Source of the DNA: an uncultured virus (IMG/VR IMGVR_UViG_3300037962_000140)
Lineage: Duplodnaviria; Heunggongvirae; Uroviricota; Caudoviricetes
Virus record (IMG/VR): IMGVR_UViG_3300037962_000140
Span: 61,921 to 81,920 of that record
Length of the DNA stretch: 20,000 nucleotides
Strand: one strand, 5' to 3'
Below, piece after piece: positions 5,565 to 19,645 of this stretch (position 1 is the first letter of the stretch; every line of letters begins with the position of its first letter). Made by a program: the position numbers and the translations under genes. The notes under the pieces were generated by a model. That model was not told where the DNA came from and ran no database searches. It saw only the letters and a program-made list of their open reading frames with translations.

Positions 5565-7937
5565 ATGGCAGAATTCCAAGTTCCACAAGATCTTGAAGGC
5601 GAAGAAGAGCTAGAAATCCTTTTTGATGAGGATGATAATGTTCTTTACCCCGAAGCACTGCAAGCTGAGGGTGAAATGCCTTTCGGTGAGAACATGGCTG
5701 ACTATCTTGAGGATAGTGTTCTAGGTCAAATCTCCTCACAGCTTATTTCTTCTTACGAAGACGACTTATCTTCACGACAAGACTGGTATGAGACCTTTAG
5801 AAACGGTCTTGACTTGTTAGGAATTGATAGCGAAGCTCGCAGTGAGCCGTTTGAAGGTGCAAGCGGGGTATACCACCCGTTACTAGCTGAAGCTACCACG
5901 CATTTTCAAGCACAAGCATACAAAGAACTTTTACCGGCTAATGGACCTGTAGATACAAAGGTTATGGGAGCATCTAACGACCCTAAACTGATGCAGGCTA
6001 ACCGCGTAAAAGATTTCATGAATTATCAGCTAATGTATAAGATGGAAGAATACGATCCTGAAATGGATCAAATGTTGTTCTTCCTTCCGTTAGCAGGATC
6101 TGCATTTAAAAAGTGTTATTACGACCCTTCGATGGGACGAGTCGTTTCTCGTTTTGTTAAAGCTGAAGATTTAGTCGTTCCGTACACAACCACGGATTTA
6201 CATACCACTCCTCGGATTACGCACGTCATTAAAATGACTGAGAACGATATGCGTAAGTTACAGCTTAGTGGTTTCTATCGCGACGTAGGTATGACGCCTC
6301 CTGGATATACTACAGACGAAAATGTCATACAAGAAAAGATTGACGAATTAGATGGAGTTTCTAGAACAGGTTCTTCTGAAGAATACACGTTGTTAGAGTG
6401 TCATGTAGAACTAGATATAGAAGGATTCGAACACACAGATGCGAACGGTGAAACGACTGGATTAGCGTTACCGTATATTGTAACTATTTGCCAAGACAAC
6501 AGTGAAGTTTTGTCGATTAGACAGAACTACGATGAGATTGATCCTATGCGTAAAAAGATTGAATACTTTACGCATTATAAATTCCTTCCTGGATTAGGAT
6601 TTTATGGGTTCGGGCTGATTCACATGATTGGTGGAGTAACTAAGTCTGCTACAGCAATACTGAGACAGCTAATTGATGCAGGCACACTTGCTAATCTACC
6701 GGCTGGTTTCAAATCACGCGGATTGAATATACAGCGTTCAGATGACCCATTACAACCAGGAGAGTGGCGTGACGTTGACGCTCCTGGAGGTACTATTCGC
6801 GATTCCTTCTTACCGTTGCCGTATAAAGAACCTAGTGCAACTTTAGCCCAGCTGCTGGGGTTATTAGTTGAATCTGGACAACGGTTTGCGGCAGTAATGG
6901 ATCAGCAGACGGGAGAAGGCAATAGTCAAGCTCCTGTAGGCACTACTGTCGCCCTTTTAGAAAAAGGCCAGAAGGTTATTTCTTCGATACATAAGCGACT
7001 ACATTATGCACAGAAGAATGAGTTTAAGATTCTAAAACGATTATTCGGAGAGTATCTACCTCCTGAATATCCGTACCAAGTACAAGGAGCACAACAGACT
7101 GTTTTTGCTCAGGACTTCAATAACAGTGTAGACATTGTTCCTGTTTGCGACCCTAACATTTTTAGTACTACGCAACGAATTATCTTAGCGCAGACGCAAC
7201 TACAGATGGCGCAAAGTGCACCTCAGATTCACAATATGAAAGAAGCCTTCCGTAAGATGTATCTTGCGTTAAATATCAAAGATATTGACGACGTGCTTCT
7301 TCCTGACTTTGCCCCTACGCCTAAAGATCCTGTTCAGGAAAACATGGACGCATTAATGAATGTTCCGTTAAAAGCGTTTCCTCAGCAGAATCATGATGCA
7401 CACATCCAAGCACATATGGCGTTTATGCAAAGCCCACAGATACAGCAGAACCCACAAGCAATGTCAGCGTTACAAGCGCATATTCAAGAACACATTGCAT
7501 TGAAGTATCGAGTGCAGATGGAACAGATACTAGCTGAACAAGGTATTCAGTTACCACAGCCTGGACCAGATGGTCAAATGCCGCAGCTTCCACCTGAAAT
7601 GGAAAGTCAGATTGCGGTAGCGGCTGCTCAAGCTACGCAGCAAATAACAGGTCAAGAACAAGCACTAGCGCAAGCGATGGCGGCACAACAACAAGATCCG
7701 CAACGCCAGATGTTTGAAGAACAGATGGAACTTGAATTTGAGAAAATTAATCAACGCGACAGAGAATCTGAACGCAAGATGCAACTTGAAAGAGAGAAGA
7801 TTGAGTCTCAAGAACAGCAAACAGATATTAAGGTTGCTGCAGAACTTCAAGAAGCTGAAATGCAGAATGAGCGAGACATGGACTCTAACCTAACTGAGAT
7901 CGCGAAAGTTGTTCGCGAATCCAGAGAACAGGAATAG
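5565..7937 (+). CDS. Portal protein (podovirus/P22-like, long C-terminal coiled-coil barrel)
   Basis: Directly follows terL; 790 aa; motifs HPLLAEA, GSAFKKCYYD, GFYGFGLIHMIG, LRQLIDAGTLANLP, APVGTTVALLE; Q/E-rich C-terminus. Confidence 0.9.
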   Translation: MAEFQVPQDLEGEEELEILFDEDDNVLYPEALQAEGEMPFGENMADYLEDSVLGQISSQLISSYEDDLSSRQDWYETFRNGLDLLGIDSEARSEPFEGASGVYHPLLAEATTHFQAQAYKELLPANGPVDTKVMGASNDPKLMQANRVKDFMNYQLMYKMEEYDPEMDQMLFFLPLAGSAFKKCYYDPSMGRVVSRFVKAEDLVVPYTTTDLHTTPRITHVIKMTENDMRKLQLSGFYRDVGMTPPGYTTDENVIQEKIDELDGVSRTGSSEEYTLLECHVELDIEGFEHTDANGETTGLALPYIVTICQDNSEVLSIRQNYDEIDPMRKKIEYFTHYKFLPGLGFYGFGLIHMIGGVTKSATAILRQLIDAGTLANLPAGFKSRGLNIQRSDDPLQPGEWRDVDAPGGTIRDSFLPLPYKEPSATLAQLLGLLVESGQRFAAVMDQQTGEGNSQAPVGTTVALLEKGQKVISSIHKRLHYAQKNEFKILKRLFGEYLPPEYPYQVQGAQQTVFAQDFNNSVDIVPVCDPNIFSTTQRIILAQTQLQMAQSAPQIHNMKEAFRKMYLALNIKDIDDVLLPDFAPTPKDPVQENMDALMNVPLKAFPQQNHDAHIQAHMAFMQSPQIQQNPQAMSALQAHIQEHIALKYRVQMEQILAEQGIQLPQPGPDGQMPQLPPEMESQIAVAAAQATQQITGQEQALAQAMAAQQQDPQRQMFEEQMELEFEKINQRDRESERKMQLEREKIESQEQQTDIKVAAELQEAEMQNERDMDSNLTEIAKVVRESREQE

Positions 7938-8627
7938 GTGGCTTATTTATTAAGCAACATACCTCATTTTAACGCATGGATCCGAAAAGAATTTACACAC
8001 AATCACATAGACTATCACGGAGAGTATTTACACGCGGTTGTTTTTGCTGTAAATACCATTCCGGACAGATGTCTATCTTTTCAAGTAGTCTTTACGGGAT
8101 TTGAACTTGATGCAGAAGAGGATGCAGAAAATATACACGGTGGCGCGATGTGGGCTAGGATGCCTATAACTGCGCTTGTTGCAGACTCCGTTTTAGAGGA
8201 GATGCCTGAAGCTATGCCTACGCATTTAGCTCAGCCGTGGGATTGTAGTTCTCATGAACATGCAGTAATCAAAATGGATCGTGTTTCCTCTAGCCCTTGG
8301 CTTTGTAAGATAGATAATGAATTCCACACTGGACGTTATTTATTTACTGTTGACTACACTGGAAATGATATCGCTGATGATCCAGCACAACATAAACAAA
8401 GTCATGTGTTAGAACTAACGGATGCTGGTAAGTGGACAGGTAATATTGTTGCACTTCCTAACAACCGTGTAAGAGCGACTAACCCAGCACTTTGGGAGAC
8501 AGGATCAGGCGCACCTGATTTTTATCCTAGTCAGCATTTACACAGTGCAGAAATTCATGACAGTTACATGGATCCAAAAGTGACTTTTAATAATTTGTAT
8601 TCAGAAGGAGACAAAAGTGAAAGGTAG
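7938..8627 (+). CDS. Conserved phage protein of unknown function
   Basis: GTG start immediately after the portal stop; globular composition with GAMWARMPI, QPWDC, YLFTVD, HKQSH and ALPNNRV motifs. Confidence 0.85.
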   Translation: MAYLLSNIPHFNAWIRKEFTHNHIDYHGEYLHAVVFAVNTIPDRCLSFQVVFTGFELDAEEDAENIHGGAMWARMPITALVADSVLEEMPEAMPTHLAQPWDCSSHEHAVIKMDRVSSSPWLCKIDNEFHTGRYLFTVDYTGNDIADDPAQHKQSHVLELTDAGKWTGNIVALPNNRVRATNPALWETGSGAPDFYPSQHLHSAEIHDSYMDPKVTFNNLYSEGDKSER

Positions 8628-11476: not shown

Positions 11477-12385
11477 ATGGCTATCAATAGAGCACAACTC
11501 GTTAAAGAGCTTGTTCCTGGCCTCCATGCTCTCTTTGGACTTGAGTATGATAGGTATCCGAATGAGCATGAGGAAATTTTCGATACGGAAAGTTCCGAAA
11601 GAGCATTCGAAGAAGAAGTTATGCTTTCTGGCTTTGGCGAAGCCCCTGTTAAGAGCGAAGGCTCTGCAGTGGACTACGACAGCGCACAAGAAGCATGGAC
11701 TGCGCGTTATACACATGACACGGTCGCTTTGGCCTTCAGTCTAACTGAAGAAGCGATCGAGGATAATTTGTATGACACGTTATCTTCTCGTTACACACGC
11801 GCACTAGCACGTTCCATGATGACCACTAAGCAAATTAAGGCAGCTAACATTTTAAACAATGCTTTTAGTTCGTCTTATGTTGGTGGTGATGGAAAAGAGC
11901 TTTGTGCAACTGACCACCCCACCGTTGCAAATGAAGATCAAAAGAATGAGCTGTCTACCGCAGCTGATTTGAATGAAACTTCATTGGAACAAGCGTTGAT
12001 TGATATTGCTGCGTTCGAAGACGAGCGCGGTCTTAAAATCAATGCTCAAGCAAGAAAGCTGATTATCCCACCTGCTTTGCAGTTTGTTGCGGATAGGCTT
12101 CTTGAGTCAGCGGGAAGAGTAGGTACAGCAGACAATGATATCAACGCAGTTCGTAACATGGGCATGGTTCCTGAAGGTTACACTGTAAATCATTATCTAA
12201 CTGATACTGATGCTTTCTTCCTAAAGACTGATGTTCCTAACGGACTCAAGCATTTCGTTCGTACGCCTGTATCAACGAATATGGAAGGTGACTTTGAAAC
12301 CGGAAATGTTCGATATAAGGCCAGAGAGCGTTATAGCTTTGGTTGGTCTGATTGGAGAGGTATTTTCGGCTCTCCTGGAGCATAA
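11477..12385 (+). CDS. Major capsid protein (HK97 fold, Mu gpT-like family)
   Basis: TAAGGAG RBS; 302 aa; KSEG, GGDGKELCATDHP, KLIIPPAL and RYKARERYSFGWSDWRG motifs; followed by a terminator-like hairpin. Confidence 0.92.
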   Translation: MAINRAQLVKELVPGLHALFGLEYDRYPNEHEEIFDTESSERAFEEEVMLSGFGEAPVKSEGSAVDYDSAQEAWTARYTHDTVALAFSLTEEAIEDNLYDTLSSRYTRALARSMMTTKQIKAANILNNAFSSSYVGGDGKELCATDHPTVANEDQKNELSTAADLNETSLEQALIDIAAFEDERGLKINAQARKLIIPPALQFVADRLLESAGRVGTADNDINAVRNMGMVPEGYTVNHYLTDTDAFFLKTDVPNGLKHFVRTPVSTNMEGDFETGNVRYKARERYSFGWSDWRGIFGSPGA

Positions 12386-12391
12386 TACCAC

Positions 12392-12416
12392 AGGGGGGCT
12401 ATGCCCCCCTTTATTT
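12392..12416 (+). terminator. Intrinsic terminator/attenuator hairpin after the capsid gene
   Basis: AGGGGGGC-TAT-GCCCCCCT stem followed by TTATTT (imperfect U tract). Confidence 0.7.
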
Positions 12417-12493
12417 CTGGGAATATAATAGCCCTAGCGACTGTCCCAGCAGACGCTTACGAAGACTCTAGGGCGAAACCTTTCGTAAGGAGG
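12417..12493 (+). ncRNA. Pseudoknotted structured RNA downstream of the capsid gene (candidate Mu-gpT-DE-type motif)
   Basis: Three crossing helices: 12417-22/12444-49, 12431-37/12468-74, 12456-63/12482-89; position downstream of a gpT-like gene fits my recollection of the Mu-gpT-DE motif. Confidence 0.7.
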
Positions 12494-12500
12494 AAAACCG

Positions 12501-13007
12501 ATGGCTCAGACGACTTTCGCTGGCCCCGTTAGATCACTCGCTGGTCTTATTAATGCTGGATACAATGGTGTTGTTAGCTTAACAGCTAATACAACAATTA
12601 CTGTTGCTGATCATGCAGGACGACCACTTCTTTGTAATGATGCAGATGGTGTTTTTACACTGCCTAGTATTGTTGTTACAGAACCTACTGATAAAGGTTC
12701 TCCAAGTCAAACAGCCAATTTAGGTGCGCAATTTACATTTATAGTTGTAACAGCTGCTACTGACATGGACATCGTAACGGATGGTACTGACAAATTTGTT
12801 GGTGGAATTTACACAGGCGTAGATGATGCAACTGGTAAAACTTTCATCTCAGGTGCGTCTAATGACGTTATTACTCAGAACGGTTCTACTAAAGGTGGAT
12901 TAGCTGGAAGTATTATCAGAGTTACTGCTATAGCAAGTGCTAAATATGCGGTAGAAGGATTAATACTTGGTTCAGGTACACTTGTTACTCCATTCGCTGA
13001 CTCTTAA
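12501..13007 (+). CDS. Putative virion structural protein (minor head/decoration)
   Basis: TAAGGAGG RBS; MAQTTFAGPVRS N-terminus; T/G/V beta-rich; directly after the capsid gene. Confidence 0.7.
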   Translation: MAQTTFAGPVRSLAGLINAGYNGVVSLTANTTITVADHAGRPLLCNDADGVFTLPSIVVTEPTDKGSPSQTANLGAQFTFIVVTAATDMDIVTDGTDKFVGGIYTGVDDATGKTFISGASNDVITQNGSTKGGLAGSIIRVTAIASAKYAVEGLILGSGTLVTPFADS

Positions 13008-16594: not shown

Positions 16595-19500
16595 ATGGCT
16601 AGTACATATGTAAACGATCTTCGCCTAAATGAAATGGCGACAGGAGATGGTTCAGGAACGTGGGGAACGACCACGAATTTAAACCTGGAGATGATCGCAG
16701 AAAAATTTGGAACAGGGTCTGAAGCTCTTTCAGACGCCTCTACCGCCACCATAACGATGGCTGACGGGGCTTCAGACGCTTTTCGTTCTACAGCACTAAC
16801 ACTTACAGGTTCTTTATCACAAGCCTGTACCGTGACGTTTGCTCCTAACACTATTAGTAACGTATGGGTAGTTCAAAACTCTGCTGGTGATACCGTAACG
16901 ATTTCACAAGGCACAGGCGCAAATGTAGTCATACCAAATGGCGGTATTAGGATGATCGCCACTGACGGTGCTGGCTCTGGTGCAGCGGTTACAGATGTAC
17001 TCGACGTATTAGGCGGTACAGGCAACGTAGGGCTTGGTTCAGGTGCGTTTGGCACAGGGCTGACCACAGGTACAGATAACGTAGCGATAGGTGAGGCTGC
17101 TGGCGATGCTCTAACCACTGGGTCTGATAATACTTTGATTGGAGACAATGCGGGTGGCGCATTGACAACTGGGGGAAGTAACGTAGCTGTCGGCTCTAGT
17201 GCGCTTCTTACTGAAGATGGAAATGGCAACAATGTTGCGGTAGGTTTTGAAGCACTTAAAGTATTAAATGCTGGTACGGATGGTTATAACGTAGCTATTG
17301 GTTACCAAGCTGGCGCATCAATGACTACTGGTACGTCAAATACTTTGATCGGCGGAGTTTCTGGAGACGTTATAACAACAGGATCGAACAATGTTGGTAT
17401 CGGAATTAATACGTTAGGTCAACTTACGACTGGGAGCCAAAATATAGCCATCGGCACTGCTGCTTTAGATGCAGCTACTACCGCAGATAATAACACAGCT
17501 ATTGGACATGGTGCTTTAGGTGCTAACACTTCAGGTACACGCAATGTTGCGGTTGGGCATAGTGCGTTAGACGCACTTACCACTGGGACGGACAACACGG
17601 CTGTTGGAAAAGACGCTCTAACTGCCGCTACTACTGGAAACTACAACATAGCTTTTGGAACAGCTTTAGCCGCTAACACCACTGGAGGCCAAAATGTAGC
17701 TGTTGGATTTGCAGCGTTAGGGTCAAACACAACGGCAACCGGAAACACTGCGGTAGGAGATTATGCACTTAATGCAAACACCACAGGTATACGCAATGTG
17801 TCTGTCGGAAAAAATGCATTAGACGCAAATACTACCGCAGACGATAACACAGCGGTGGGATATAATGCCGCTACTACTAATACGACTGGAACAAACAACT
17901 CTGCTTTTGGTGCTTACGCACTAGGTTTAAACACCACAGGTTCTCAAAACACTGCGATTGGAAGAAGCACTTTATACCAAAACACGACTGCGGATAACAA
18001 CACCGCTGTAGGCACAAGCGCGTTAAATGCGAACACCACAGGTGACACGAATGTAGCTGTCGGTAAAGATTCAATGTTAGCGAACACCACCGGAACAAAT
18101 AATACTGCGGTGGGTGCGCGATCTTTACAGGACAACACTACAGCGGCAAACAATGTTGCCGTGGGCGATCTTGCGTTGGGGTCTAACACCACTGGTGCTA
18201 GCAATGTGGCGGTAGGAGTAGAGGCGTTAATGACTAGCACAACGAGTACAGAAAATGTTGCGGTTGGCTACAATGCTTTAAAACTTACCACAGCAGGTGC
18301 AAACACCGCAGTTGGATATGCTGCTGCGGATGCAAACACAACAGGTTCAGCTAACACAGCAATAGGCAGTAACGCTTTACACTCAAACTCAACAGGGTCA
18401 CAAAATACTGCGATTGGAGAAAACACCTTATCAGCTAACACCACCGCAGATAATAACACGGCGATAGGTTATAGGGCACTTTTATCTAATACTACAGGTT
18501 ATGCCTTAGTTGGTGTTGGTAGAACTGCTTTAGCGGATAACACAACTGGTGCTGCAAACGTGGCGGTTGGTCAGAACGCACTAGCCAATAACACCACAGC
18601 AAGTAACAACATTGCCATTGGGTTAGAAGCGTTATTTACCAACACTACTGGGGCGCAATGTATTGCAATTGGTGGTGGTGCAGCCGCTGCATCAAACATA
18701 TCTAATACTCTTGCTATTGGATATAGCGCACTTAACGATCTTACAACAGGGGCCAGAAACGTAGCGATTGGAAATTATGCGTTAGATACTACTCAATCAG
18801 GCTCAAATAGTGTTGCTGTTGGTTATGCGGCGGGCGATGCGGTTACTACAGCCAGCTCCCTTGTCTTGGTAGGCGATGTAGCTGGAGATGCTATAACAAC
18901 GTCTAGTCACTGTGTAGCTGTTGGGGCAGGTGCGTTAAGCACTCACGCAACGGGTACTGGAAATACCGCTGTTGGTTTTACTGCTTTAGCGAATTGTACT
19001 AATGGAGGAAATACAGCAGTAGGGCTTGAAGCAGGGGCAGCTGTTACAACAGGCTATAACAATACTTTTGTTGGAGAAGATGCAGGAGATAGTATTACAA
19101 CAGGGTATGGCAACACTTGTGTCGGAATTAATGCTAATCCCAGTGGTAGTAATGGAGAAAAACAAATTGTTATTGGTTACGACTTTTCTGGTAATGGAGA
19201 CAATAAAGTAAACCTTGGAAGTTCTGGTGGATATGTTTGGAACTCATTTACAGTAAACAATACTTGGACTCAGGTTTCGGACGAGAGAACTAAAAAGAAT
19301 ATTGAGTCAGACGATTTAGGTTTAGAGTTTATAAACGAATTAAGACCAGTAACTTTTAATTGGAGACATTCTTCTGAAATTGATCCTGAATTTATTGAAC
19401 AAACTGTCAATATTGGTAAGGGTGAAAAAGACACAGAAACTTTAATTCACGGGCTTATTGCTCAAGAGGTTAAAGCTGCGATGGATTCTGTTGGCAATAC

Positions 19501-19645
19501 AACATTTAATGGCTGGGAAGAAGGCCAAGATGGACAAGCGGTTTCAAGAGAAATGTTTATTACTCCGTTGATAAAAGCTGTTCAAGAATTGTCTGCTCAA
19601 GTTACTACATTGAAGTCGGAAATAGCTGCGCTCAAAGGAGGCTAG
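16595..19645 (+). CDS. Tail fibre/spike: beta-solenoid repeats plus C-terminal peptidase S74 intramolecular chaperone
   Basis: Virion-anchor N-terminus (GTWGTTTNLNL); long 17-aa repeat array; SDERTKKNI...GLEFINELRPVTFNW...GLIAQEV...LIKAVQEL followed by a coiled coil. Confidence 0.9.
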   Translation: MASTYVNDLRLNEMATGDGSGTWGTTTNLNLEMIAEKFGTGSEALSDASTATITMADGASDAFRSTALTLTGSLSQACTVTFAPNTISNVWVVQNSAGDTVTISQGTGANVVIPNGGIRMIATDGAGSGAAVTDVLDVLGGTGNVGLGSGAFGTGLTTGTDNVAIGEAAGDALTTGSDNTLIGDNAGGALTTGGSNVAVGSSALLTEDGNGNNVAVGFEALKVLNAGTDGYNVAIGYQAGASMTTGTSNTLIGGVSGDVITTGSNNVGIGINTLGQLTTGSQNIAIGTAALDAATTADNNTAIGHGALGANTSGTRNVAVGHSALDALTTGTDNTAVGKDALTAATTGNYNIAFGTALAANTTGGQNVAVGFAALGSNTTATGNTAVGDYALNANTTGIRNVSVGKNALDANTTADDNTAVGYNAATTNTTGTNNSAFGAYALGLNTTGSQNTAIGRSTLYQNTTADNNTAVGTSALNANTTGDTNVAVGKDSMLANTTGTNNTAVGARSLQDNTTAANNVAVGDLALGSNTTGASNVAVGVEALMTSTTSTENVAVGYNALKLTTAGANTAVGYAAADANTTGSANTAIGSNALHSNSTGSQNTAIGENTLSANTTADNNTAIGYRALLSNTTGYALVGVGRTALADNTTGAANVAVGQNALANNTTASNNIAIGLEALFTNTTGAQCIAIGGGAAAASNISNTLAIGYSALNDLTTGARNVAIGNYALDTTQSGSNSVAVGYAAGDAVTTASSLVLVGDVAGDAITTSSHCVAVGAGALSTHATGTGNTAVGFTALANCTNGGNTAVGLEAGAAVTTGYNNTFVGEDAGDSITTGYGNTCVGINANPSGSNGEKQIVIGYDFSGNGDNKVNLGSSGGYVWNSFTVNNTWTQVSDERTKKNIESDDLGLEFINELRPVTFNWRHSSEIDPEFIEQTVNIGKGEKDTETLIHGLIAQEVKAAMDSVGNTTFNGWEEGQDGQAVSREMFITPLIKAVQELSAQVTTLKSEIAALKGG
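17024..19135 (+). repeat. About 40 degenerate 51-bp (17-aa) repeats NxAxGxxALxxNTT(G/A)xx
   Basis: For example NTAVGDYALNANTTGIR / NVSVGKNALDANTTADD / NTAVGYNAATTNTTGTN; boundaries are approximate. Confidence 0.9.

What the first reader, a model, noticed from the sequence alone, without database searches (positions are those of the whole stretch)
12417..12500. Compact double-pseudoknot RNA between the capsid terminator and the next gene, pairing into its RBS
Seen: in under 80 nt, three perfect helices cross each other: CTGGGA(12417-22)/TCCCAG(12444-49), GCCCTAG(12431-37)/CTAGGGC(12468-74) and CTTACGAA(12456-63)/TTCGTAAG(12482-89). TCCCAG also sits in the loop of a small AGCG-A-CTG...CAG-A-CGCT hairpin that partly competes with helices 2 and 3. 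The last helix covers the first half of the TAAGGAGG Shine-Dalgarno of gene 12501. Knowledge (from memory): a motif of unknown function called Mu-gpT-DE was described downstream of Mu gpT-like capsid genes. Inference: this could be a translational switch, a protein-binding autoregulatory element that sets capsid-to-minor-protein stoichiometry, a ribozyme/processing site, or a structural RNA.
Basis: partly seen in the sequence, partly recalled or inferred. Interest (0 to 1): 0.8.

Follow-up and report, generated by a model that had tools for sequence, protein, structure and literature searches.

The report
Double-pseudoknot leader before capsid-spike gene
A small, tightly knotted RNA in front of the gene that follows the capsid gene is real and conserved across a very common group of ocean phages, is a knotted cousin of a catalogued motif of unknown function, and most likely controls how much of a capsid-surface protein is made.

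Summary
The three perfect crossing helices lie exactly where stated. No chain of three crossing helices appeared in 0 of 5000 shuffles. All three helices, plus a 3-bp inner hairpin (P3), covary in relatives. On 81 distinct sequences 92% of cells pair, against 67% when shuffled and 27-40% when slid, and 16 of 18 pairs change on both sides. The third helix occurs in about 30 different complementary versions of 5 bp or more.

The fold is a three-way junction with invariant GAC-GAC-GAC linkers, locked by two pseudoknots. It ends at or inside the Shine-Dalgarno site. It always sits upstream of a gene whose product starts M-x-x-T-T-F-x-G-P and folds like a phage capsid spike.

It has no Rfam match. 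In 12 of 80 close relatives the same site holds Mu-gpT-DE (RF03012), which shares the junction, and intermediates exist. I therefore file it as a pseudoknotted variant of that orphan class.

The best reading is a cis-acting leader that controls translation of the spike gene, possibly by sensing a protein. No function has been tested. Cultured carriers exist: pelagiphages HTVC023P and HTVC027P, and lake phage DSL-LC04.

The parts
11477..12385 (+). Major capsid gene (302 aa), upstream neighbour
   Evidence: Pfam Phage_capsid_4 2.2e-14 and Mu-like_gpT 5.8e-08. PHROG major head protein 4.4e-24.
12392..12416 (+). Intrinsic-terminator-like GC hairpin plus T run, ending just before the motif
   Evidence: Scan: stem 12392-12410, 8 pairs of which 7 are G-C, followed by a T-rich tail. 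All 23 unique upstream contexts without a -10-like box have such a hairpin within about 10 nt of H1, as read by eye from the printed sequences.
12417..12422 (+). H1 5' strand (pseudoknot 1); the conserved core is 12417-12421
   Evidence: Pairs with 12444-12449. Columns 1-5 covary with columns 39-35 of alignment A6 (for example UA 56 / CG 24; GC 38 / AU 32 / UA 9). H1 was not part of the model that made the alignment.
12423..12430 (+). A/U-rich linker between H1 and H2
   Evidence: Across 81 sequences the linker is 5-13 nt and 92% A+U. Its TATAAT (12424-29) is not conserved among close relatives.
12431..12439 (+). H2 5' strand
   Evidence: Pairs with 12466-12474. All 9 pairs show changes on both sides and 95.7% of cells pair.
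12440..12440 (+). Invariant junction A between H2 and P3
   Evidence: A in 81 of 81 sequences.
12441..12452 (+). P3 hairpin (CUG / CAG); its 6-nt loop 12444-12449 is the H1 3' strand
   Evidence: C-G is invariant. The middle pair is UA 60 / GC 16 / CG 5. The third pair is G-C in 65 of 81.
12453..12465 (+). Junction strand J: invariant AC, then the H3 5' strand (12456-12463), then invariant GA
   Evidence: A 81/81, C 80/81, G 79/81, A 81/81. The middle part varies and is complementary to each sequence's own downstream partner.
12466..12474 (+). H2 3' strand
   Evidence: See H2 5' strand.
12475..12481 (+). A-rich spacer (GAAACCT) between H2 and the H3 3' strand
   Evidence: Semi-conserved in the window's subtype and in the subtype of L283/L306.
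12482..12489 (+). H3 3' strand (pseudoknot 2), overlapping the Shine-Dalgarno site by 3 nt
   Evidence: 8 bp with 12456-12463. Compensated versions occur in relatives, such as CUUACCAA/UUGGUAAG, CUAACGAA/UUCGUUAG and UUUACGAA/UUCGUAAA.
12487..12503 (+). Shine-Dalgarno AAGGAGG (12487-93), spacer, and start codon (12501-03)
   Evidence: Read directly from the sequence. The distance from the 3' end of H3 to the start codon is 4-19 nt, mode 11, in 90 unique forms.
12501..13007 (+). Controlled gene: 168-aa virion-surface protein, capsid-spike or cement-like

Best explanation
The element is a cis-acting leader RNA of about 75 nt on the + strand, belonging to the gene that follows the capsid gene.

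Fold. It forms a three-way junction of H2, the short hairpin P3, and H3. The three linkers are invariant and read A / AC / GA, so the sequence shows GAC three times. Two pseudoknots lock the junction. The P3 loop pairs with the extreme 5' segment (H1). The junction strand J pairs with the segment that abuts or overlaps the Shine-Dalgarno site (H3).

Proposed action (inferred). In the folded state the 5' half of the ribosome-binding site is held in a rigid knot just upstream of the start codon. This sets or switches ribosome loading on the capsid-spike/cement gene relative to the capsid gene. I think the invariant junction is most likely the docking site for a trans-acting factor. My preferred candidate is unassembled virion protein, which would give assembly-coupled feedback. 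This is an inference by analogy with ribosomal-protein leaders and the P22 scaffolding protein, both recalled from memory.

Shown here: the fold by covariation, the strand, the tie to the downstream gene, and the contact with the ribosome-binding site.

Inferred, not shown: that the fold changes translation, in which direction, and whether any factor binds.
For: Structure. On 81 distinct sequences 92.2% of cells pair, against 67.4% when shuffled (0 of 500 shuffles reach it) and 27-40% when the partners are slid. The covariation score is 0.734 against 0.251. Changes on both sides occur in 16 of 18 pairs, including all 5 core H1 pairs, which the alignment model did not contain.

H3. Of 120 unique J/tail combinations, 90 have their own helix of 5 bp or more, in about 30 distinct sequence versions. 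The median share of non-self tails reaching the own score is 0.004, and 77 of 90 are at or below 0.05.

Strand. Many G-U cells occur in H2 (for example UG 8, 6, 8 and 5), which fits RNA read from the + strand.

Context. The model hits once per locus, on the gene strand, directly before the gene: 66 of 80 capsid relatives, one hit in the 81,920-bp own record, and 6 of 7 MAG loci. In a pattern-based sample that did not use any protein, 56 of 80 loci were model-positive. Of those 56, 47 are followed by an ORF starting M-x(1-3)-[ST][TS]-F-x-G-[PA], and 7 more by a variant of that motif. In HTVC027P the motif stays with this gene although two ORFs separate it from the capsid gene.

Link to the ribosome-binding site. 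H3 ends 4-19 nt (mode 11) before the start codon. In the window it covers 3 nt of AAGGAGG. The related Mu-gpT-DE puts its outer stem in the Shine-Dalgarno site. Its J tetramer matches the start-codon region: GCCA with UGGC in 45, CCCA with UGGG in 3, GCCG with UGGC in 1, and no mismatched case among 49 unique sequences.

Invariant junction nucleotides are counted.
Against: There is no expression or probing data.

H3 does not always overlap the Shine-Dalgarno site. In several subtypes it ends 4-6 nt upstream.

Of 120 unique forms, 30 have no own H3 of 5 bp or more. Their possible 4-bp pairings, with GGAG or with the start codon, cannot be told from cross-pairings because every tail contains those words.

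In the window GAGG of a strong Shine-Dalgarno site stays unpaired, so the effect could be small or even enhancing.

Plain occlusion needs only a hairpin. The elaborate fold is explained only if something more, such as a bound factor or a 5'-end function, is at work.

In the window lineage no promoter-like site lies between the terminator and H1. The leader would then be made only by terminator read-through.

The Mu-gpT-DE start-codon compensation may be a single evolutionary event: 3 sequences that share neighbouring bases.
Confidence: 0.6

Rival explanations
1. The knot is a 5'-end protection or mRNA-stability element. It buries the first nucleotides of the transcript, or blocks a 5'-to-3' exonuclease as viral exonuclease-resistant RNAs do. 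This would stabilise the spike mRNA, with translation only a bystander.
For: In 52 of 75 unique upstream contexts a -10-like hexamer ends 4-10 nt (mode 7, 25 cases) before the first base of H1. The predicted transcript would then start at H1. The fold is compact, doubly knotted and 5'-terminal. That paired 5' ends protect bacterial mRNAs, and that viral exonuclease-resistant RNAs are knotted three-way junctions, is recalled, not tested.
Against: The -10 boxes are consensus matches in A/T-rich DNA. The tool's own scan did not call a promoter at the HTVC027P site, and no control at other offsets was run. In 23 of 75 contexts, the window included, there is no such box. A plain 5' hairpin would be enough for protection. 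It does not explain why the 3' partner of H3 always lies next to or inside the ribosome-binding site.
Confidence: 0.17
2. It is a small-molecule riboswitch. The invariant junction binds a metabolite or ion, and binding stabilises the knot that holds the ribosome-binding site.
For: Eight junction positions are (nearly) invariant while all the helices around them vary. A pseudoknot reaches the Shine-Dalgarno site, as in some translational riboswitches (recalled).
Against: Every instance found precedes one gene family, a virion-surface protein, and never a metabolic or transport gene. There are few conserved unpaired nucleotides. No Rfam riboswitch family matches.
Confidence: 0.1
3. It is a self-cleaving ribozyme or a nuclease processing site that cuts read-through capsid transcripts just 5' of H1, giving the spike mRNA its own 5' end.
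For: It has a nested double-pseudoknot topology with its first helix at the extreme 5' edge. In the window lineage it directly follows the terminator, with no promoter in between.
Against: No known ribozyme family matches at E<=10. Most lineages appear to have their own promoter-like box, so cleavage would be needless there. The strand order differs from HDV-like ribozymes: the H1 3' strand lies inside the P3 loop (order read from the sequence; the HDV layout is recalled).
Confidence: 0.05
4. It is a 3' element of the capsid message or a free small RNA (a 'downstream element' of gpT), unrelated to the next gene.
For: Rfam types Mu-gpT-DE as a gene/sRNA and names it for its position after gpT. 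The element follows the capsid gene in most loci.
Against: A terminator lies between the capsid gene and the motif. HTVC027P has two ORFs in between. The length from H1 to the start codon is nearly constant, 80-88 nt in 34 unique sequences. H3 and the Mu-gpT-DE outer stem pair with the next gene's initiation region.
Confidence: 0.05

Closest known systems
Mu-gpT-DE RNA motif (Rfam RF03012; the name and accession come from the Rfam search output; function unknown)
   Same: It occupies the same genomic slot. Of 80 close capsid relatives, 12 carry it where 66 carry the knotted form. Roseobacter phages CRP-901 and CRP-902 carry it before the homologous gene, at 72.3 bits. It has the same core: outer stem, a single A, an inner hairpin opening with C-G, then AC...GA on the 3' side, so GAC appears three times. 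Its J strand is nearly identical to that of one knotted subtype. Intermediate forms with the CUG..CAG inner hairpin score 43-49 bits, just under the 49-bit cut-off.
   Different: RF03012 does not match the window at E<=10, nor four other knotted loci at E<=1. My knot model gives Mu-gpT-DE-type loci at most 15.5 bits, E 0.9. In the window the outer stem is a long variable helix about 13 nt upstream of the Shine-Dalgarno site, not CCUG/CAGG inside it. The hairpin loop forms a 5-6 bp pseudoknot with a 5' strand that Mu-gpT-DE lacks. J forms a 5-8 bp pseudoknot with the pre-SD segment.
Double-pseudoknot translational operators of ribosomal-protein operons (E. coli alpha-operon leader bound by S4; rpsO pseudoknot bound by S15). 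Recalled from memory.
   Same: It works like them in outline: a knotted leader that includes or abuts the ribosome-binding site of the first gene. In those systems the free gene product binds the leader and blocks or traps the 30S subunit.
   Different: There is no sequence or model similarity and no Rfam hit. No binding protein is known here. The gene encodes a virion protein, not a ribosomal one.
Phage translational autoregulation (T4 gene 32 leader pseudoknot; P22 scaffolding protein feedback). Recalled from memory.
   Same: A phage protein whose synthesis is tuned after transcription, in the T4 case through a 5' pseudoknot. Feedback is tied to how much protein is already engaged in its job.
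   Different: Those RNAs are simple H-type knots or are undefined. This one is a three-way junction with two pseudoknots, and binding is unproven.
Exonuclease-resistant RNAs of flaviviruses and plant viruses. Recalled from memory.
   Same: Similar size, a three-way junction locked by two pseudoknots, and involvement of the 5' end.
   Different: No Rfam match. The strand order differs. The setting is bacterial, and no resistance has been tested.

Membership tests
Mu-gpT-DE (RF03012) | Scores at or above the curated Rfam cut-off of 49 bits | tested here: not met
   No RF03012 match in the window at the gathering score, nor at E<=10 in 12300-12600. True members in relatives score 58.8-74 bits.
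Mu-gpT-DE (RF03012) | Lies between a Mu gpT-like capsid gene and the next gene, ending at that gene's start codon | tested here: met
   The capsid gene matches Pfam Mu-like_gpT at 5.8e-08. The motif spans 12417-12489 and the start codon is at 12501.
Mu-gpT-DE (RF03012) | A 4-bp outer stem (CCUG/CAGG) whose 3' strand is part of the Shine-Dalgarno site | tested here: not met
   The outer stem H2 is 9 columns, variable in sequence, and ends at 12474, 13 nt before the Shine-Dalgarno site.
Mu-gpT-DE (RF03012) | Asymmetric internal loop: one A on the 5' side, AC...GA on the 3' side, around an inner hairpin | tested here: met
   A 81/81, AC 81/81 and 80/81, GA 79/81 and 81/81 in the knotted family. 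The same letters appear in the Rfam consensus and in 49 Mu-gpT-DE-like sequences.
Known self-cleaving ribozyme classes in Rfam (HDV-like, hammerhead, twister, twister-sister, pistol, hatchet and others) | Match to the family covariance model | tested here: not met
   The only matches at E<=10 in 12300-12600 are two chance hits on the terminator hairpin. Catalysis itself cannot be tested with these tools.
Known riboswitch classes in Rfam | Match to a family covariance model | tested here: not met
   for the window. for relatives with the knotted form.
Protein-binding translational operator (functional class, not a sequence family) | The leader includes the ribosome-binding site in a conserved structure | tested here: met
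   H3 overlaps the Shine-Dalgarno site by 3 nt in the window. It ends 4-19 nt before the start codon in 90 forms.
Protein-binding translational operator (functional class, not a sequence family) | A specific protein binds the leader and lowers translation | not testable with these tools
   No RNA-protein prediction or assay was available.

The most novel reading that the evidence does not exclude
The knot is a sensor, not a passive structure. Its invariant, pseudo-threefold GAC-GAC-GAC junction would be the docking site for unassembled virion protein, most attractively the spike or cement protein encoded just downstream. The structural neighbours of that protein are, as I recall, trimeric phage proteins. 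Spike synthesis would then be feedback-coupled to capsid assembly. Mu-gpT-DE would be the minimal form of the same operator. This would be the first RNA operator family for virion-decoration genes, carried by some of the most abundant viruses in the sea.
Probability: 0.3. Interest if true: 0.75.

Novelty: new variant of a known kind. Interest (0 to 1): 0.7.

Why it matters
Mu-gpT-DE has been an orphan motif with a two-stem model and no assigned role. This work shows three things about it.
- It is the simple end of a larger family whose other members are double pseudoknots built on the same three-way junction.
- The family belongs to the 5' leader of one gene family, a capsid spike or cement protein with a fixed N-terminal anchor, not to the capsid gene.
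- The variable junction strand always finds a partner in that gene's translation-initiation region.

Together these turn an unexplained motif into a testable model of translational control.

The carriers include the HTVC023P-type pelagiphages. [quoted passage not shown] Cultured phage-host pairs exist for both forms: HTVC023P and HTVC027P on Pelagibacter, and CRP-901 and CRP-902 on Roseobacter.

The RNA is also a compact natural double pseudoknot with very rich covariation, which makes it a good target for structure determination.

Tried and rejected
Rfam. The whole window gave nothing at gathering scores. The region at E<=10 gave only two chance hits on the terminator.

Nested folding. The minimum-free-energy fold is -41.8 kcal/mol with z -2.13, and 8 of 200 shuffles fold as well. 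This program cannot model pseudoknots, so it says little here.

MAFFT alignments A1, A2, A4 and A5 put the H1 5' strand in three different registers. I used the covariance-model alignment A6 instead.

Model R1, built without the F subtype, scored F-subtype loci at only 8.5-17.4 bits and Mu-gpT-DE loci not at all. I rebuilt it as R2.

The TATAAT in the window's linker (12424-29) is rejected as a promoter. It is not conserved among the closest relatives, and it would start transcription inside H2.

A DNA-level element is rejected. G-U pairs are tolerated on the + strand only.

The 4-bp pairings of two subtypes (CUCC with GGAG; GCCA with UGGC at the start codon) could not be separated from cross-pairings. 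They remain possible, not shown.

No read mapping was done.

The supplement of Weinberg et al. 2017 (PMC5737381), which should describe Mu-gpT-DE, could not be read. Its main text does not mention gpT.

The CaCoFold paper (PMC7657543) lists Mu-gpT-DE in its supplementary file 8. Judging by row position, the entries fall under loop or non-Watson-Crick covariations, not under 'new pseudoknot'. That placement is my inference from row numbers.

Literature searches found no description of the knotted form. Terms used: Mu-gpT-DE; 224 candidate structured RNAs; HTVC023P; pseudoknot + major capsid protein + translational + pelagiphage; pelagiphage + riboswitch/structured RNA/ncRNA/RNA motif.

The scan's earlier notes hold nothing on this sequence.

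Full report
**What is in the window.**
- H1: 12417-22 with 12444-49.
- H2: 12431-37 with 12468-74.
- H3: 12456-63 with 12482-89.

H1 crosses H2, and H2 crosses H3. Within the 73-nt stretch they are the only perfect helices of 6 bp or more. A chain of three crossing helices turned up in 0 of 5000 dinucleotide-preserving shuffles, and any crossing pair in 64 of 5000.

The upstream gene, 11477-12385, is a major capsid gene: Pfam Phage_capsid_4 2.2e-14, Mu-like_gpT 5.8e-08, PHROG major head protein. It is followed by a terminator-like hairpin at 12392-12410 and a T run. H3 overlaps the first 3 nt of the Shine-Dalgarno AAGGAGG (12487-93) of the gene that starts at 12501.

The window is part of an 81,920-bp IMG/VR virus record. 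Its capsid module is about 65% identical in DNA to pelagiphage HTVC023P and its relatives.

**It is not a catalogued family, but one sits in the same place in relatives.** Rfam gives no match in the window at curated cut-offs. At E<=10 in 12300-12600 it gives only two chance hits on the terminator.

I fetched the 80 closest capsid relatives from viral contigs and classified the region after the capsid gene in each.
- 66 of 80 carry the window's motif: one model hit each, on the gene strand, just after the capsid gene.
- 12 of 80 carry a different, simpler element that Rfam recognises as Mu-gpT-DE (RF03012, 60-74 bits).
- 2 of 80 contigs end before the region.

**Anatomy from comparison.** Further loci came from relatives of three downstream proteins: the window's own, HTVC023P gp41, and the protein that follows Mu-gpT-DE in L013. 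Together they show one architecture in many sequence guises, in this order:
1. H1 5' strand, 5-6 nt.
2. Linker of 5-13 nt, 92% A+U.
3. H2 5' strand, 9 columns.
4. An invariant A.
5. P3 hairpin (CUG/CAG, CCG/CGG or CG/CG) whose 6-7 nt loop is the H1 3' strand.
6. Invariant AC.
7. A variable stretch.
8. Invariant GA.
9. H2 3' strand.
10. An A-rich spacer.
11. H3 3' strand, then the Shine-Dalgarno site.

Because J pairs downstream, H2, P3 and H3 meet in a three-way junction. Its three linkers make the sequence read GAC three times: 12439-41, 12452-54 and 12464-66 in the window. The junction counts are A 81/81, C 81/81, G 81/81, A 81/81, C 80/81, G 79/81 and A 81/81.

**Covariation of H1, H2 and P3.** I built a covariance model that contains only H2 and P3 and used it to align 81 distinct instances. 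On that alignment:

| Measure | Observed | Shuffled | Partners slid |
|---|---|---|---|
| Cells paired | 92.2% | 67.4% (0 of 500 shuffles reach it) | 27-40% |
| Covariation score | 0.734 | 0.251 | at most 0.146 |

- 16 of 18 pairs change on both sides.
- All nine H2 pairs covary.
- The middle P3 pair is U-A in 60, G-C in 16 and C-G in 5.
- The five core H1 pairs covary strongly, for example G-C 38 / A-U 32 / U-A 9.

H1 was not in the model, so its support does not come from fitting. H2 and P3 counts do lean toward the model that made the alignment. The sixth H1 pair forms in 20 of 81 sequences, the window included. Frequent G-U cells mark the + strand RNA as the folded molecule.

**Covariation of H3.** The position of H3 varies, so I tested it at the level of whole helices with my own script. 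Among 120 unique combinations of J and downstream tail:
- 90 have their own helix of 5 bp or more, in roughly 30 different sequence versions.
- For these 90, the median share of non-self tails reaching the own score is 0.004.
- 77 of 90 are at or below 0.05.

Single compensated changes relative to the window are seen. Examples are CUUACCAA/UUGGUAAG, CUAACGAA/UUCGUUAG and UUUACGAA/UUCGUAAA. Wholly different pairs also occur, such as GUAUAG/CUAUAC in HTVC023P and CCUAG/CUAGG changing to CCUAA/UUAGG.

The other 30 forms belong to two subtypes and offer only 4-bp matches, to GGAG or to the start-codon region. Every tail contains those words, so my control cannot support these pairings.

H3 ends 4-19 nt (mode 11) before the start codon. 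It therefore abuts or overlaps the Shine-Dalgarno site.

**The motif belongs to the downstream gene.** Four observations support this.
- The length from H1 to the start codon is 80-88 nt in 34 unique sequences.
- In HTVC027P two small ORFs lie between the capsid gene and the motif, yet the motif stays directly upstream of gp62, the homologue of the window's gene.
Of those 80 loci, 56 are model-positive at E<=0.01.
- Of the 56, 47 are followed by an ORF beginning M-x(1-3)-[ST][TS]-F-x-G-[PA]. Seven more have a variant of that N-terminus, one contig is cut, and one start is unclear.

The proteins share only this N-terminal stretch of about 16 residues. Their bodies differ, at 168-301 aa.

**Relation to Mu-gpT-DE.** The Rfam consensus and 49 unique Mu-gpT-DE-like sequences show the same plan: an outer stem, a single A, a hairpin, then AC...GA. 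Their J strand is almost the same as that of one knotted subtype.

Forms with the outer stem of Mu-gpT-DE but the CUG..CAG hairpin of the knotted family score 43-49 bits, just under the 49-bit cut-off. Four knotted loci give no RF03012 match at E<=1. My model gives Mu-gpT-DE-type loci at most 15.5 bits.

In Mu-gpT-DE the outer stem itself lies in the Shine-Dalgarno site. In addition, its J tetramer is complementary to the start-codon region:
- GCCA with UGGC in 45.
- CCCA with UGGG in 3.
- GCCG with UGGC in 1.
- No mismatched combination among the 49.

This suggests an unreported third helix there too. It may rest on a single evolutionary event.

I conclude that the window's element is a pseudoknotted variant of the same class. 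It is not a member of RF03012 as currently modelled.

**Upstream context.** In 52 of 75 unique upstream contexts a -10-like hexamer ends 4-10 nt (mode 7) before H1, which would put the transcript's first base at H1. These are consensus matches in A/T-rich DNA. The tool's own scan did not flag the HTVC027P site, and I ran no control at other offsets, so this is an inference. The remaining 23 contexts, the window among them, have only the terminator hairpin within about 10 nt of H1 (read by eye). No + strand promoter-like site was found in the window. Here the leader would be made by read-through.

**Mechanism.**
- Shown: a conserved + strand RNA fold, its tie to one gene family, and its physical contact with that gene's ribosome-binding site.
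- Inferred: the knot sets or switches translation initiation of the spike gene (confidence 0.6). The invariant junction is a binding site for a trans factor, most plausibly unassembled virion protein (about 0.3). The restriction to a single gene family resembles ribosomal-protein leaders more than metabolite riboswitches.
- Rivals: 5'-end protection (0.17), riboswitch (0.1), ribozyme or processing site (0.05), capsid 3' element or free sRNA (0.05).

**Distribution and tractability.**
- Knotted form: pelagiphages HTVC023P (61.7 bits) and HTVC027P (46.8 bits), lake phage DSL-LC04 (40.7 bits), and 6 of 7 loci found in MAG contigs.
- Mu-gpT-DE: Roseobacter phages CRP-901 and CRP-902.

The own record holds a single copy. 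[quoted passage not shown] I could not examine those data.

**Literature.** The searches named under Tried and rejected found no description of the knotted form. The Weinberg 2017 supplement that defines Mu-gpT-DE could not be read, so what it says about function or pseudoknots is unknown to me. Earlier notes of this scan describe other structured RNAs after capsid genes in unrelated phages. They contain nothing on this sequence.

Noticed in passing
L013:1335-1393, L032:2407-2465, L281 and L277 (upstream of position 409): In Mu-gpT-DE the J tetramer is complementary to the start-codon region. It is GCCA with UGGC in 45 unique sequences, CCCA with UGGG in 3, and GCCG with UGGC in 1, with none mismatched among 49. 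This points to a possible third helix that the Rfam model, which stops at AUG, cannot see.
   Followed up: partly
L341, L336, L346, L390, L380 (tails after the motif): In some relatives the H3 3' strand sits in the loop of a small extra hairpin (GGU...ACC). H3 would then be a loop-to-junction contact rather than a pairing with a free tail.
   Followed up: no
L290:about 290-400: Before a homologous gene (start AUGGGU) there is a simpler element. It is an 8-bp pairing between a 5' strand and the loop of a 6-bp hairpin, with no P3 and no GAC junction. It may be a degenerate or independent knot.
   Followed up: no
window 12501-13007 and L010, L013, L049, L055: The genes after the motif share only the first 16 or so residues (M-A-x-T-T-F-x-G-P-V-R/K-S...). 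Their bodies differ, at 168, 182-206 and 301 aa. This looks like a fixed capsid anchor with swappable outer domains.
   Followed up: partly
window 7938-8627 (+): This ORF matches a PHROG annotated as ferredoxin in the auxiliary-metabolic-gene category (1.2e-30). It lies between the portal gene (5565-7937) and the head genes.
   Followed up: no
L399:151-294 (- strand): The search pattern matched three times at 57-nt spacing in one viral contig, which suggests a tandem repeat. The RNA model did not hit it at E<=0.01, so it is probably unrelated.
   Followed up: no
L184, L323:2325-2368 and other F-subtype loci: A conserved block (TTGCAC, 17 nt, TATAAA) lies upstream of H1 and looks like a full promoter. 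The tool's scan does not call it, because it requires T at the last -10 position.
   Followed up: partly
window 16595-19645 (+): A 1016-aa ORF has several tail-spike and virion-structural PHROG matches (best 4.9e-128, in 9 stretches), suggesting a repetitive tail spike.
   Followed up: no
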